IMG/VR virus record: IMGVR_UViG_3300044701_003563
Length of the DNA stretch: 64,000 nucleotides
Reading direction: 5' to 3' (one strand)
DNA from: a virus
Shown one piece after another: positions 29,828 through 38,494 of the stretch. The position numbers and the translations under genes are program-made. Within the stretch, counting starts at the first letter, position 1. Each line of letters opens with the position of its first letter. The notes under the pieces are model-generated. The model was not told where the DNA came from. It saw nothing but the letters and a program-made list of their open reading frames with translations, and ran no database searches.

Positions 29828-29857
29828 AAAAAAAGAGAGGGAGTCAAGTCCCTCTCT
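29828..29857 (-). terminator. Intrinsic terminator closing the riboswitch operon
   Basis: 9-bp stem AGAGAGGGA/TCCCTCTCT, 6-nt loop, U-tract on the minus strand. Confidence 0.85.
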
Positions 29858-29863
29858 AATTTA

Positions 29864-29971
29864 TTAAGCAACTTGTGGTTGCTTTGCCATATTCAATTGT
29901 GCTTCTTTAAGTTTTTCGTCTTTTTCTTTTTTATCTTTAATAATCTGAAGAGGATTTAATTTGACAATCAT
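29864..29971 (-). CDS. Small protein (35 aa, MIVKLNPLQIIKDKKEKDEKLKEAQLNMAKQPQVA)
   Basis: ATGA overlap with the upstream gene stop; GGAGG RBS. Confidence 0.6.
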   Translation of the reverse strand: MIVKLNPLQIIKDKKEKDEKLKEAQLNMAKQPQVA

Positions 29972-30126
29972 TTTGCCACCTCCCCATTATTGCAAGGACG
30001 ATAGGGAATTCCACGGTATGTATTTTGTGGATGTGCTGGTGCATGTGTTTTAGAATACCACTTACGATATTCTTCTTTAGGTGTGTCGGTATTATACTGA
30101 CAACCCCTATAGGTTGCTTGTGACAT
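29968..30126 (-). CDS. DUF4278-like small protein (52 aa) with two TYRG.xY motifs
   Basis: MSQATYRGCQY...NTYRGIPY; AAGGAG RBS; directly downstream of the riboswitch-like element. Confidence 0.8.
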   Translation of the reverse strand: MSQATYRGCQYNTDTPKEEYRKWYSKTHAPAHPQNTYRGIPYRPCNNGEVAK

Positions 30127-30158
30127 TAGGTTTTCTCCTTAGTTTTTAGGTTAAAGAG

Positions 30159-30382
30159 CGTTCCTTCAGTCGGCTTTTGCGTCTATTTTGCACTCCTTCG
30201 GAGATATTTGCTTCACCTCCCAAATCAAATCATTTCGGATCTGCTTTGGCAATGAGTATGCATTAACCCGAGAAACAATCAATTGTGCTTGTAAACAAGT
30301 TAGAATGAGTGCTTCCATAGATGAACGATCCGTTCCGAGTCGGCTTACTTCCGTTTGCTATTTGCAAATAGCAAATGAACGT
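30159..30382 (-). ncRNA. Tandem or split glnA-type glutamine riboswitch
   Basis: Unit 1 (30381-30331): CGUUC-A-[palindromic stem]-CGGAAGUAAGCCGACUCG-GAACG. Unit 2 (30327-30159): CGUUC-A-UCUAU...AUAGA-CGCAAAAGCCGACUGAAG-GAACG. Lies upstream of a DUF4278-like gene. Confidence 0.78.
30166..30318 (-). CDS. 50-aa ORF nested in the riboswitch (MEALILTCLQAQLIVSRVNAYSLPKQIRNDLIWEVKQISPKECKIDAKAD)
   Basis: Manual translation; 153 nt open frame that fills the insertion exactly; no strong RBS. Confidence 0.6.
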   Translation of the reverse strand: MEALILTCLQAQLIVSRVNAYSLPKQIRNDLIWEVKQISPKECKIDAKAD

Positions 30383-30388
30383 AGAGGC

Positions 30389-30417
30389 ATTCTAATCCTC
30401 ATTATTTATGTAGTCAA
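30389..30417 (-). promoter_or_regulatory. Sigma70-type promoter TTGACT-17-TAGAAT with predicted start at about 30382; late-like ATAAATA in the spacer
   Basis: The spacing puts +1 on the first aptamer nucleotide. Confidence 0.7.
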
Positions 30418-30424
30418 GTCAGTT

Positions 30425-30440
30425 TGTAACACTTGTTACA
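30425..30440. promoter_or_regulatory. NtcA-like box TGTA-N8-TACA
   Basis: tGTAacacttgtTACa, intergenic; the GTA-N8-TAC core sits 8 nt upstream of the -35. Confidence 0.6.
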
Positions 30441-38349: not shown

Positions 38350-38452
38350 GTAGTAAGACCATCAGGGACATGGTGGAGTTACTATGCTCCCCGCACCCTC
38401 AGCGGGGATATGAGAGACGTATTTACCCTCCCTTAGGTCTCGGTTAACGGGA
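38350..38452 (-). ncRNA. PhotoRC-II-like structured psbA leader
   Basis: ACCGAGACC...GUCUCUCAUAUC, CCCCGC/GCGGGG hairpin and ACCAU/AUGGU hairpin in the psbA 5' UTR, matching my recollection of the motif. Confidence 0.72.
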
Positions 38453-38494
38453 GCACAATCTTTAAGAAACTTTACATTCCTTAACTTGTTGATG

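What the first reader, a model, noticed from the sequence alone, without database searches (positions are those of the whole stretch)
30159..30382. A protein-coding ORF threaded through a split glutamine-riboswitch aptamer
Seen: two CGUUC...GAACG units. Unit 1 has a perfect 22-nt palindromic P2 (30354-30375) and GGAAGUA but lacks the GAAG that normally closes the E-loop. Unit 2 has GAAG-GAACG but only GCAAA. Both share the direct repeat AAGCCGACU (30338-30346 and 30168-30176). A 50-codon ORF starts inside unit 2's 5' P2 strand (UCU-AUG) and stops inside its 3' core (CCGAC-UGA-AGGAACG), filling the P2 loop exactly. Known: glnA-motif aptamers use CGUUC/GAACG P1 with a GGAAGUA/GAAG E-loop and often occur in tandem. 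Inference: a complete canonical aptamer can only be assembled from the 5' half of unit 1 and the 3' end of unit 2, looping out about 170 nt that contain the ORF. Ribosome passage through the nested ORF and glutamine binding would then be mutually coupled, giving a hybrid riboswitch/leader-peptide device controlling the downstream gene. I know of no description of this architecture but cannot check the literature.
Basis: partly seen in the sequence, partly recalled or inferred. Interest (0 to 1): 0.88.

Follow-up and report, generated by a model that had tools for sequence, protein, structure and literature searches.

The report
Gene nested inside interlocked glutamine riboswitch
In this cyanophage the two apparent "tandem" glutamine sensors are one RNA with two sensor cores folded one inside the other, and a hairpin of the inner core closes around a real 50-codon gene, so sensing nitrogen status and translating that gene must compete on the same mRNA.

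Summary
Unit 1 has GGAAGUA but no GAAG. Unit 2 has GAAG-GAACG but only CGCAAA. The AGCCGACU repeat and a 50-codon ORF (30318-30166) are both there.

In 129 unique related phage loci the two AGCCGACU copies pair with each other, with compensatory changes. They form the P3 helix of one outer glutamine-I aptamer. The long-range "linchpin" pair is Watson-Crick only across units (129/129 against 4-8/129 within a unit).

The enclosed part is a second, circularly permuted, E-loop-less core, not a plain loop. Many phages carry this fold in a compact ~100-nt form without any ORF.

The ORF is a real gene. dN/dS is 0.21, indels come in threes, and 94 of 95 copies are intact. It was never found outside this RNA. 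Its AUG lies in the inner P2 stem.

Downstream, an anti-SD/SD hairpin begins at the linchpin C and precedes a DUF4278 (IF17-like) gene.

Regulatory coupling between translation and glutamine binding is inferred, not shown. I found no published description. This scan has flagged the same layout on other phage DNA.

The parts
30426..30439 (-). NtcA-type box, GTA-N8-TAC
   Evidence: Read directly. GTAN8TAC is present in 82 of 92 unique upstream regions of related loci, against 3 of 92 shuffles. Its centre mostly lies 51-54 nt before CGUUC(1).
30389..30417 (-). Sigma-70-type promoter: TTGACT, 17 nt, TAGAAT. The predicted start is 1-2 nt before CGUUC(1).
   Evidence: 10 of 12 matches. The transcription start site is inferred, not measured.
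30377..30381 (-). Outer P1, 5' strand: CGUUC(1)
   Evidence: RNAalifold pairs it with GAACG(2) in 63 of 63 sequences.
30354..30375 (-). P2 hairpin of the outer aptamer (22-nt perfect palindrome)
   Evidence: The stem covaries in relatives: 4 of 4 pairs show double changes.
30346..30353 (-). Junction CGG-AAGUA. The G at 30351 is the outer linchpin base (X1). AGUA is the 5' half of the E-loop.
   Evidence: alignment. X1 pairs with the base after GAACG(2) in 129 of 129 loci.
30338..30345 (-). P3 5' strand (AGCCGACU, copy 1)
   Evidence: It pairs with copy 2. Six of eight positions are paired in 98-100% of loci, and three of those positions show compensatory pair types.
30328..30336 (-). GGAACG(1), the inner P1 5' strand, plus the 3-nt linker loop GAU. 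The G at 30330 is Y1.
   Evidence: One search gives the inner hairpin in 63 of 63 sequences. X2:Y1 is paired in 117 of 129 loci, including 2 G:C reversals.
30323..30327 (-). Inner P1 3' strand: CGUUC(2)
30182..30321 (-). Inner P2. The base stem UCUAU (30321-30317) pairs with AUAGA (30186-30182), there is a second stem, and the 140 nt between hold most of the ORF.
   Evidence: The base stem is paired in 89-95 of 95 loci per position. A divergent subfamily carries compensatory UUCC/GGAA.
30166..30318 (-). Nested protein-coding ORF, 50 aa. The A and U of its AUG are paired in the inner P2 base stem. Its UGA spans the end of P3 and the E-loop GAAG.
   Evidence: 94 of 95 unique homologous CDS are intact, with lengths 50, 51, 52, 53 or 55 aa, and codon-position entropy is 37/21/56. 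dN/dS is 0.21. AlphaFold gives a two-helix hairpin at pLDDT 83.
30176..30181 (-). Inner junction CGCAAA. The C at 30179 is X2. This is glutamine-II-like polarity with no E-loop strand.
   Evidence: The comparison with the glutamine-II sequence uses PMC6698751.
30168..30175 (-). P3 3' strand (AGCCGACU, copy 2)
30158..30167 (-). GAAG (E-loop 3' half), GAACG(2) (outer P1 3' strand) and the linchpin C (Y2, 30158)
30135..30158 (-). Expression platform. The anti-SD CUCUUUA (30158-30152) pairs with the SD UAAGGAG (30141-30135). The first base of this hairpin is the linchpin C.
   Evidence: Predicted in every fold. The SD is paired this way in 105 of 129 related loci.
29968..30126 (-). Controlled gene: 52-aa YRG-repeat protein, DUF4278/IF17-like
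   Evidence: Pfam DUF4278 E=2.9e-4, 21.6 bits, below the cut-off of 25.3. phrog_5049 E=3.7e-10.
29864..29971 (-). 35-aa ORF overlapping the previous stop (AUGA)
   Evidence: Only weak PHROG hits.
29834..29857 (-). Intrinsic terminator closing the ~555-nt unit
   Evidence: 9-bp stem followed by a T run.

Best explanation
The element is the leader of a small, self-contained phage operon: an NtcA-type box, a sigma-70-type promoter, a leader RNA, a DUF4278 gene, a 35-aa ORF and a terminator.

The leader is one interlocked double glutamine aptamer, not two aptamers in a row.

- **Outer core (canonical glutamine-I).** P1 is CGUUC(1) with GAACG(2). It also has P2(1), the junction CGG-AAGUA and the E-loop AGUA(1)/GAAG(2). 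P3 is made by the two AGCCGACU copies pairing with each other. The linchpin is G(30351):C(30158).
- **Inner core.** The far end of P3 opens into a circularly permuted core without an E-loop. GGAACG(1) and CGUUC(2) form a hairpin closed by the 3-nt linker. Then come P2(2) and the junction CGC, whose C pairs with the linker G. This keeps every nucleotide that contacts glutamine in the solved structures, so it probably binds a second glutamine. That is inferred.
- **Output for the DUF4278 gene.** The linchpin C is also the first base of an anti-SD/SD hairpin. Ligand-dependent capture of that C should free the Shine-Dalgarno sequence, giving an ON switch as shown for gifB. This is inferred by analogy.
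- **Nested gene.** A real 50-aa protein gene fills the loop of P2(2). Its AUG is paired in the P2(2) base stem, directly under the inner junction. Its reading frame runs through the P2(2) 3' strand, the CGC junction and the P3 3' strand, and stops on the E-loop GAAG.
- **Consequence.** A translating ribosome must unfold the inner core. At termination it must also cover the outer core's 3' strands. A folded, ligand-bound RNA hides the AUG. Folding and translation are therefore mutually exclusive.

I think the likeliest use is reciprocal control: at high glutamine the nested gene is off and the DUF4278 gene is on. That step is the weakest part of the explanation.
For: **Interlocked fold**
- Cross-unit P3 pairs are kept in 98-100% of 123 in-register loci at 6 of 8 positions. 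Pair types are AU/CG/GU, GC/AU/GU and UA/GC/UG at three of those positions.
- Within-unit closing pairs hold in only 79-80%, and they fail exactly where the cross-unit pair is compensated.
- On 29 compact forms the nested structure gives 93.1% paired cells, 12 pairs with double changes and 0 of 500 shuffles as good. Under the side-by-side structure the discriminating pairs are 3-7% and about 38% paired.
- The outer linchpin is paired across units in 129 of 129 loci (127 G:C, 2 C:G). Within units the figures are 8 of 129 and 4 of 129.
- RNAalifold on 63 ORF-bearing leaders, the window included, predicts the outer and inner P1 helices unaided.
- The nearest-neighbour energy of the window RNA favours nested over side-by-side by about 3-4 kcal/mol.
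- The linchpin and glutamine contacts are taken from PMC6698751 and PMC5393176.

**Coding ORF**
- Searches show dN/dS 0.21 and indels in multiples of three. dS drops from 1.44 in the centre to 0.39-0.57 where the ORF overlaps aptamer parts.
- There are 190 protein clusters.
- Every ORF-bearing homolog locus parsed keeps the CGUUCA-UCU-AUG context.

**AUG placement**
- The base stem is kept in 89-95 of 95 loci per position.
- Two other ORF families placed in aptamer hairpins also put their AUG 4-5 nt after CGUUCA.

**Platform**
- The anti-SD/SD hairpin is present in 105 of 129 loci.
- The gifB precedent for an ON switch and for DUF4278 association is in PMC6212724.
Against: - No binding, probing or expression data exist for this RNA.
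- Both P1 helices are invariant. Covariation therefore cannot tell which CGUUC pairs with which GAACG. The nested assignment rests on P3, the linchpin and E-loop geometry.
- The inner linchpin is unpaired in about 9% of loci (C.A or C.U, with 4-nt linkers).
- Two P3 positions are C.A mismatches in most loci.
- The window's own P3 copies are identical, so within-unit mini-hairpins are equally possible in this one sequence.
- The inner core lacks an E-loop and has a 3-nt loop where the known aptamers have free ends, so ligand binding there is uncertain.
- The nested ORF has no Shine-Dalgarno sequence, and its product has no known function or fold relatives.
- About 19% of loci lack the obvious anti-SD hairpin.
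Confidence: 0.75

Rival explanations
1. This is a classical tandem: two independent side-by-side glutamine aptamers. Each folds on its own, and a small gene happens to be inserted in the variable P2 loop of the second.
For: Each unit has its own CGUUC...GAACG pair and a P2 hairpin. Rfam scores the units singly at 28-38 bits. The literature calls such RNAs tandem (PMC2864571). In the window the AG/CU ends of each repeat could close a 2-bp mini-hairpin.
Against: Within-unit linchpin pairs are G.G and C.C in 94-97% of 129 loci. Within-unit P3 closing pairs break in about 20% of loci, exactly where the cross-unit pair is compensated. Neither unit has both E-loop strands. RNAalifold prefers the nested helices.
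Confidence: 0.07
2. The RNA is a two-state switch. It toggles between a side-by-side form, which folds first during transcription, and the nested form. Glutamine captures the nested form, and that exchange is the regulatory step.
For: The two CGUUC strands, the two GAACG strands and (in most loci) the two P3 strands are identical, so both topologies can form. Their predicted energies differ by only about 3-4 kcal/mol. Unit 1 is transcribed about 170 nt before the 3' partner strands exist.
Against: Selection is visible only for the nested pairs. The within-unit P3 closing pairs are not maintained. GAACG(2) is paired in both states, so the exchange by itself does not change the anti-SD hairpin.
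Confidence: 0.3
3. The nested ORF is mainly a cis-acting leader peptide. Its translation rate, for example at its conserved Gln codons, reports charged tRNA or ribosome supply and remodels the leader. This would resemble mgtL in the Salmonella mgtA leader or the classical attenuators.
For: The ORF lies wholly inside the regulatory RNA. Its start and stop overlap structural elements. Four Gln positions are conserved. Termination on the E-loop/P1 strands sits 27 nt before the downstream SD, which suits coupling or re-initiation.
Against: Amino-acid conservation runs along the whole peptide (invariant C8, R17, N29, W33, C43), with dN/dS 0.21 in the centre. AlphaFold predicts a confident helical hairpin. 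There is no run of regulatory codons. In the S-SRM01 lineage the stop moves 5 codons downstream while the rest of the leader and the ORF stay conserved.
Confidence: 0.2
4. The 140-nt insert is not coding. It is an extended structured RNA arm, and the open frame is incidental.
For: Its two ends form conserved stems. Synonymous variation is reduced there.
Against: The frame is open in 94 of 95 unique copies. Indels come only in multiples of three. Third-position entropy exceeds the first and second positions (56 against 37 and 21). Central dS is 1.44 with dN/dS 0.21. RNAalifold finds almost no conserved pairing in the central 100 nt.
Confidence: 0.04

Closest known systems
Glutamine-I riboswitch (glnA RNA motif, Rfam RF01739), e.g. 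the Synechocystis gifB/IF17 leader (PMC6212724); crystal structure 5DDP
   Same: The outer core has every defining part: CGUUC/GAACG P1, a P2 hairpin, ACGGAAGUA, the E-loop, P3 and the G:C linchpin after GAACG. It sits before a DUF4278 gene, with an anti-SD hairpin that starts at the linchpin C, as proposed for gifB. An NtcA-type box lies upstream, as at gifB.
   Different: The parts come from two sequence blocks that are 49 nt apart in compact forms and 170 nt apart here. P3 is not a hairpin. It is a helix between two copies of a quasi-palindromic 8-mer, and it leads into a second core. Neither block alone reaches Rfam's gathering score in the window.
Glutamine-II riboswitch (Downstream-peptide motif, RF01704; structure 6QN3, PMC6698751)
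   Same: The inner core shares CGUUCA-hairpin-CGCA, GGAACGG and the C:G polarity of the long-range pair. It also lacks an E-loop. The glutamine-II RNA can be split in two pieces and domain-swaps in crystals, so this core can be rebuilt from separate strands.
   Different: Here GGAACG lies 5' of CGUUC, a circular permutation, and the helix is an ordinary hairpin closed by a 3-nt loop rather than a pseudoknot. The glutamine-II P2 is absent. RF01704 gives no hit even at E<=10.
Tandem riboswitch aptamers (glycine riboswitch; 'tandem glnA RNAs' of Weinberg et al. 2010, PMC2864571)
   Same: Two ligand-binding cores lie on one leader, with possible cooperativity.
   Different: Known tandems are drawn as successive, separately folded domains that touch by tertiary contacts. 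Here the two cores exchange secondary-structure strands (P1 and P3), so that one is nested in the other.
Leader ORFs inside sensory leaders (mgtL in the Salmonella mgtA Mg2+-sensing leader; from my own knowledge, not checked here)
   Same: A translated ORF sits inside a metabolite-sensing leader, so ribosome position can change the RNA fold.
   Different: mgtL is a short regulatory peptide in an expression platform. Here a 50-aa protein conserved along its length fills a hairpin of the aptamer itself and reads through conserved core nucleotides.
ORFs housed in peripheral loops of group I introns (homing endonuclease genes; from my own knowledge)
   Same: A protein gene is tolerated in a variable loop of a conserved structured RNA. 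One related contig even carries a homing-endonuclease-like ORF in the linker loop (L075).
   Different: The nested 50-aa ORF shows no endonuclease match (Pfam, PHROGs), and every homolog locus examined here lies in this riboswitch context.

Membership tests
Glutamine-I riboswitch (RF01739) | P1 helix CGUUC/GAACG enclosing the aptamer | tested here: met
   CGUUC(1) at 30381-30377 pairs with GAACG(2) at 30163-59. RNAalifold predicts this helix in 63 of 63 sequences. It is invariant, so there is no covariation.
Glutamine-I riboswitch (RF01739) | P2 hairpin directly after CGUUCA, followed by ACGGAAGUA | tested here: met
   alignment. P2 covaries at 4 of 4 pairs.
Glutamine-I riboswitch (RF01739) | E-loop made of AGUA and GAA(G) strands flanking P3 | tested here: met
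   Met only across the units: AGUA is in unit 1 alone and GAAG in unit 2 alone. Within either unit it is not met. The geometry itself cannot be tested here.
Glutamine-I riboswitch (RF01739) | P3 helix closing the E-loop | tested here: met
   P3 forms between the two AGCCGACU copies. Six of eight positions are paired in 98-100% of loci, with compensatory changes at three. The within-unit alternative fails.
Glutamine-I riboswitch (RF01739) | Long-range linchpin pair between the base after ACG and the base after GAACG (G23:C60 in 5DDP) | tested here: met
   Across units it is paired in 129 of 129 loci (127 G:C, 2 C:G). Within units the figures are 8 and 4 of 129. The identity of the pair is taken from PMC6698751 and PMC5393176, with the numbering partly from memory.
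Glutamine-I riboswitch (RF01739) | Rfam gathering score (35 bits) | tested here: not met
   Unit 1 alone scores 32.6 bits, E=4e-5. Unit 2 gives no hit. The model cannot span the 170-nt inner domain. An in-silico joined RNA could not be scored with the tools available.
Glutamine-I riboswitch (RF01739) | Selective binding of L-glutamine | not testable with these tools
   Needs in-line probing or ITC.
Glutamine-II riboswitch (RF01704) | CGUUCA-hairpin-CGCA plus GGAACGG with a C:G long-range pair | tested here: met
   The inner core has these. X2:Y1 is C:G in 115 loci and G:C in 2, of 129.
Glutamine-II riboswitch (RF01704) | Pseudoknot topology: GGAACG sits 3' of CGUUC inside the loop of a P2 helix | tested here: not met
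   GGAACG(1) lies 5' of CGUUC(2). No RF01704 match at E<=10.
DUF4278 / IF17-like (downstream gene) | Pfam PF14105 above its gathering score | tested here: not met
   21.6 bits against a cut-off of 25.3, E=2.9e-4. phrog_5049 E=3.7e-10. Call it DUF4278-like, not a proven member. Inhibition of glutamine synthetase was not tested.
Regulatory leader peptide (attenuator or mgtL type) | Short ORF whose sequence is free apart from a cluster of regulatory codons | tested here: not met
   Conservation runs along the whole 50 aa, dN/dS is 0.21, and there is no codon run.
phrog_504 (nested ORF) | Significant profile match | tested here: inconclusive
   E=5.5e-5, 23.8 bits. The family has no known function. 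The control search, run at the loose cut-off E<=1, gave matches in 10 of 14 unrelated genomes.

The most novel reading that the evidence does not exclude
One leader RNA binds two glutamine molecules in two strand-swapped cores and uses them for opposite outputs. The inner core, when folded and liganded, hides the AUG of the gene it encloses, so the nested gene is off at high glutamine. The outer core frees the Shine-Dalgarno sequence of the IF17-like gene, so that gene is on at high glutamine. Each ribosome that finishes the nested ORF resets the outer sensor. This would be a riboswitch whose aptamer is itself translated, giving a phage a two-gene nitrogen-status toggle during infection.
Probability: 0.3. 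Interest if true: 0.9.

Novelty: new variant of a known kind. Interest (0 to 1): 0.8.

Why it matters
Riboswitch aptamers are treated as compact, untranslated sensor domains. Tandem aptamers are treated as separate folds placed side by side. Here comparative data show two things that depart from that picture.

- Two glutamine cores exchange strands, so that one lies inside the other.
- Aptamer hairpins can house whole protein genes whose start codons are built into the sensor.

This bears on four points.

- **Why phage riboswitches look rare.** Covariance-model scans undercount them. The window scores below Rfam's threshold.
- **An experimental system.** The compact ~100-nt form offers a natural, testable case of intramolecular strand swapping and possible two-site cooperativity.
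- **Phage control of host nitrogen metabolism.** The unit pairs an NtcA-type box with a glutamine sensor and an IF17-like protein. That suggests a specific way for freshwater cyanophages to read and manipulate host nitrogen status.
- **Where to test it.** Isolates that carry the element exist: DSL-LC02, DSL-LC03 and S-SRM01 with the ORF, and S-CREM1 without it.

Tried and rejected
- **Rfam.** At gathering thresholds Rfam finds only PhotoRC-II in the window. The PreQ1 hit at 30133-30155 (13.4 bits, E=8) is the A-rich SD region and is chance.
- **Function of the nested ORF.** Pfam finds nothing. The ESM Atlas gives only unnamed small viral clusters scoring 0.88 or lower. Foldseek against the PDB gives nothing with E<=0.001 for the two-helix model.
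- **Homologs in isolates.** tblastn in isolate phages finds the ORF only in DSL-LC02, DSL-LC03 and S-SRM01.
- **Key papers not held.** Ames & Breaker 2011 (PMC3127080) and Ren et al. 2015 (PMC4690532) are not in the library. Structural facts come second-hand from PMC6698751 and PMC5393176.
- **Literature search.** Searches on the glutamine riboswitch with tandem, phage, nested and ORF terms found no description of the nested fold or of a gene inside the aptamer.
- **Cellular genomes.** The junction pattern in 185,579 prokaryote genomes gave 110 hits, close to my own estimate of about 90 chance matches. Only 2 have the full architecture, both on MAG contigs and none labelled as cyanobacterial.
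- **Glutamine-II-style P2 around GGAACG(2).** I considered one (AAAG/CUUU) and dropped it, because it is not conserved in S-CREM1-type leaders.
- **Single-sequence MFE folding.** It is not decisive.
Full report
**1. Setting**

The window is a T4-like cyanophage. It carries a PhotoRC-II RNA and the genes speD, thyX and phoH. The closest isolates are freshwater and estuarine Kyanoviridae. The feature lies on the minus strand between speD and a short operon.

**2. Observation**

- Unit 1 (30381-30331) matches Rfam's Glutamine model at 32.6 bits, E=4e-5. That is just under the gathering score of 35. The alignment shows the missing GAAG.
- Unit 2 (30327-30159) gives no Rfam hit.
- The ORF at 30318-30166 is 50 codons long.

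**3. The ORF is a real gene**

Three isolates carry the same ORF at the same place: DSL-LC03, DSL-LC02 and S-SRM01. Two of them annotate it as a CDS. A protein search finds 190 clusters, and a viral-contig scan finds 202 loci.

Among 95 unique coding sequences:

| Measure | Result |
|---|---|
| Intact copies | 94 of 95 |
| Lengths | 50, 51, 52, 53 or 55 aa, so indels come in threes |
| Summed column entropy, codon positions 1/2/3 | 37 / 21 / 56 |
| Nei-Gojobori dN/dS | 0.21 centrally |
| dS, central part | 1.44 |
| dS, ends overlapping aptamer parts | 0.39-0.57 |

The drop in dS at the ends is the signature of dual coding and RNA constraint.

AlphaFold2 with 43 homologs gives a two-helix hairpin (residues 2-20 and 25-38, pLDDT 83). 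The tail is floppy, and that tail is the part dictated by the aptamer core. No function can be assigned. Every ORF-bearing homolog locus parsed keeps the CGUUCA-UCU-AUG context, so the gene was not seen free-standing.

**4. The two units are one interlocked fold**

S-CREM1 has the same two units without any ORF, annotated as a single 99-nt glnA riboswitch. In all I parsed 129 unique leaders, both compact and ORF-bearing.

Three independent lines show that the units exchange strands.

**(a) The linchpin pair**

In the solved glutamine-I and glutamine-II structures, the base after ACG pairs with the base after GAACG. It is G:C in class I and C:G in class II (PMC6698751 and PMC5393176).

| Pairing | Bases | Paired loci |
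|---|---|---|
| Within unit 1 | G with G | 8/129 |
| Within unit 2 | C with C | 4/129 |
| Unit 1 base with unit 2 tail | G:C 127, C:G 2 | 129/129 |
| Unit 2 base with unit 1 tail | C:G 115, G:C 2 | 117/129 |

**(b) The repeat**

AGCCGACU is quasi-palindromic, and the two copies pair antiparallel.

- Six of the eight positions are paired in 98-100% of loci.
- Compensatory types occur at positions 1:8 (AU, CG, GU), 5:4 (GC, AU, GU) and 8:1 (UA, GC, UG).
- Divergent leaders keep a full helix with different sequence.
- Within-unit 2-bp mini-hairpins break in about 20% of loci, exactly in the lineages with the compensated cross-unit pairs.

On 29 compact leaders the two models compare as follows.

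| Model | Cells paired | Other result |
|---|---|---|
| Nested | 93.1% | 12 doubly changed pairs; 0 of 500 shuffles as good |
| Side-by-side | 87.8% overall | discriminating pairs 3-7% and about 38% paired |

**(c) The E-loop**

The E-loop strands AGUA and GAAG flank this cross-unit P3 helix, as they flank P3 in the canonical aptamer.

**Supporting predictions**

RNAalifold on 63 ORF-bearing leaders, the window included, predicts the outer CGUUC(1):GAACG(2) helix and the inner GAACG(1):CGUUC(2) hairpin without guidance. Nearest-neighbour energies favour nested by about 3-4 kcal/mol.

**5. Anatomy that follows**

- **Outer core.** It is a complete glutamine-I aptamer.
- **Inner core.** P3 opens at its far end into a three-way junction of P3, the inner P1 hairpin and P2(2). 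The junction strands are C, A and CGCAAA. This is the same circular order as a glutamine aptamer, but permuted, because P1 is closed by the linker loop. It has no E-loop and has class-II polarity of the long-range pair. All nucleotides that contact glutamine in the solved structures are invariant there.
- **A second binding site.** It is therefore plausible, but it is not shown.

**6. Where ORFs sit**

Three variable loops of the fold accept inserts.

- **P2(2).** It holds the 50-aa family and at least two divergent subfamilies.
- **P2(1).** In a subset of contigs it holds a 67-68-aa ORF with a hydrophobic, signal-peptide-like N-terminus. That ORF starts at CGUUCA-UCCU-AUG.
- **The linker.** In one contig it holds a 193-aa homing-endonuclease-like ORF. 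Several others have a small extra hairpin there.

In all three hairpin-ORF families the AUG lies 4-5 nt after CGUUCA, inside the 5' strand of the P2 base stem. For the window's family that stem (UCUAU/AUAGA) is paired in 89-95 of 95 loci per position. It is compensated to UUCC/GGAA in the divergent subfamily.

**7. Output**

The base after GAACG(2) is the outer linchpin C. It is also the first base of a CUCUUUA:UAAGGAG anti-SD/SD hairpin, eight nt before the AUG of a 52-aa YRG-repeat protein. That protein is DUF4278-like: Pfam places it below threshold, while phrog_5049 gives E=3.7e-10. The hairpin recurs in 105 of 129 loci.

This mirrors the model proposed for the Synechocystis gifB leader. 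There glutamine turns IF17 synthesis on, and DUF4278 genes are the usual partners of glutamine riboswitches (PMC6212724).

Upstream lie a TTGACT-17-TAGAAT promoter, whose predicted start falls at the first aptamer base, and a GTA-N8-TAC box. The box is kept in 82 of 92 relatives against 3 of 92 shuffles. A terminator follows a 35-aa ORF. The unit therefore resembles the host gifB circuit, carried by a phage.

**8. Mechanism: what is shown and what is inferred**

- **Shown by comparative analysis:** the nested secondary structure, the coding status of the ORF, the placement of its AUG in a conserved stem, and the anti-SD hairpin.
- **Follows from established knowledge:** a ribosome must unwind what it translates. 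Translating the ORF therefore unfolds P2(2), the inner junction and the P3 3' strand. Termination on UGA-AGGAACG occupies the outer E-loop and P1 3' strands. A stably folded stem hides an AUG that has no Shine-Dalgarno sequence.
- **Inferred:**
  - Glutamine binds, possibly at two sites.
  - The DUF4278 gene is switched on by glutamine.
  - The nested gene is switched off by it, or is translated mainly in the co-transcriptional window before its 3' stem strand exists.
  - Ribosome passage resets or couples to downstream initiation.

In the S-SRM01 lineage the UGA is lost, through the same U-to-G change that is compensated in P3. The ORF then runs five more codons into the anti-SD. The exact stop position is therefore not essential.

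**9. Known or new**

The library I could search describes glnA RNAs as sometimes tandem (PMC2864571). It lists only a few phage glutamine riboswitches (PMC5473149, PMC9964418, PMC9004378). It contains nothing on a nested fold or a gene inside the aptamer. The two primary papers on the aptamer were not available to me.

In 185,579 prokaryote genomes the junction pattern gave essentially chance-level hits. Only two had the full architecture, both on MAG contigs. As sampled, the layout is a phage feature.

Earlier notes of this scan describe the same layout on other phage DNA. I reached the reading before consulting them and tested it independently here.

**10. Verdict**

The split-aptamer inference is supported and refined to an interlocked double aptamer. 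The ORF is real. The regulatory coupling is plausible but untested. This is a new variant of a known riboswitch class and is of high interest.

Noticed in passing
window 38374-38465 (-): PhotoRC-II RNA, 74.5 bits, E=5e-11. It is the only Rfam family above its gathering score in the window.
   Followed up: no
window 30426-30439 and 30389-30417 (-): A GTA-N8-TAC (NtcA-type) box lies 8 nt upstream of a TTGACT-17-TAGAAT promoter. The box is kept in 82 of 92 related leaders. In many relatives a short palindrome flanks the -10 box, for example GGGAG-TATAAT-ACTCC.
   Followed up: partly
L047:1245-1451 and about 14 other contigs (L020, L029, L032, L048, L049, L053, L055, L061, L066, L072, L080-L082): A second nested ORF of 67-68 aa, with a hydrophobic signal-peptide-like N-terminus, sits inside the P2 hairpin of the outer core. 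It starts at CGUUCA-UCCU-AUG and stops about 10 nt before the returning stem strand. It has no Pfam or PHROG match.
   Followed up: partly
L075:909-1490: A 193-aa homing-endonuclease-like ORF (phrog_314, E=1.6e-6) is inserted in the linker between GGAACG(1) and CGUUC(2). That is the loop of the inner P1 hairpin. Unit 1 lies about 590 nt upstream of unit 2 in this contig.
   Followed up: partly
L018, L072, L083, L084 (linker region): The 3-nt linker is replaced by about 20 nt holding a small hairpin (ACCUA...UAGGU) that abuts CGUUC(2).
   Followed up: no
L110, L126, L148; L121, L199: These contigs carry divergent subfamilies of the nested ORF, with different N-terminal sequences and 53-55 aa. 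They sit in the same hairpin position with compensated stem bases. One other contig has a premature stop, leaving 20 aa.
   Followed up: partly
window 29864-29971 (-) and L004:1555-1701: The 35-aa ORF overlaps the stop of the DUF4278-like gene (AUGA). In S-CREM1 a single 48-aa protein seems to combine the N-terminal YRG motif with the C-terminal KLKEAQL motif. In the window these two motifs lie on two separate ORFs.
   Followed up: no
L011 and L053: These are the two leaders in which the outer linchpin is reversed to C:G. They also have a different 3' tail (GGGAUU/GGGAAU, reminiscent of glutamine-II) and a different downstream gene start.
   Followed up: no
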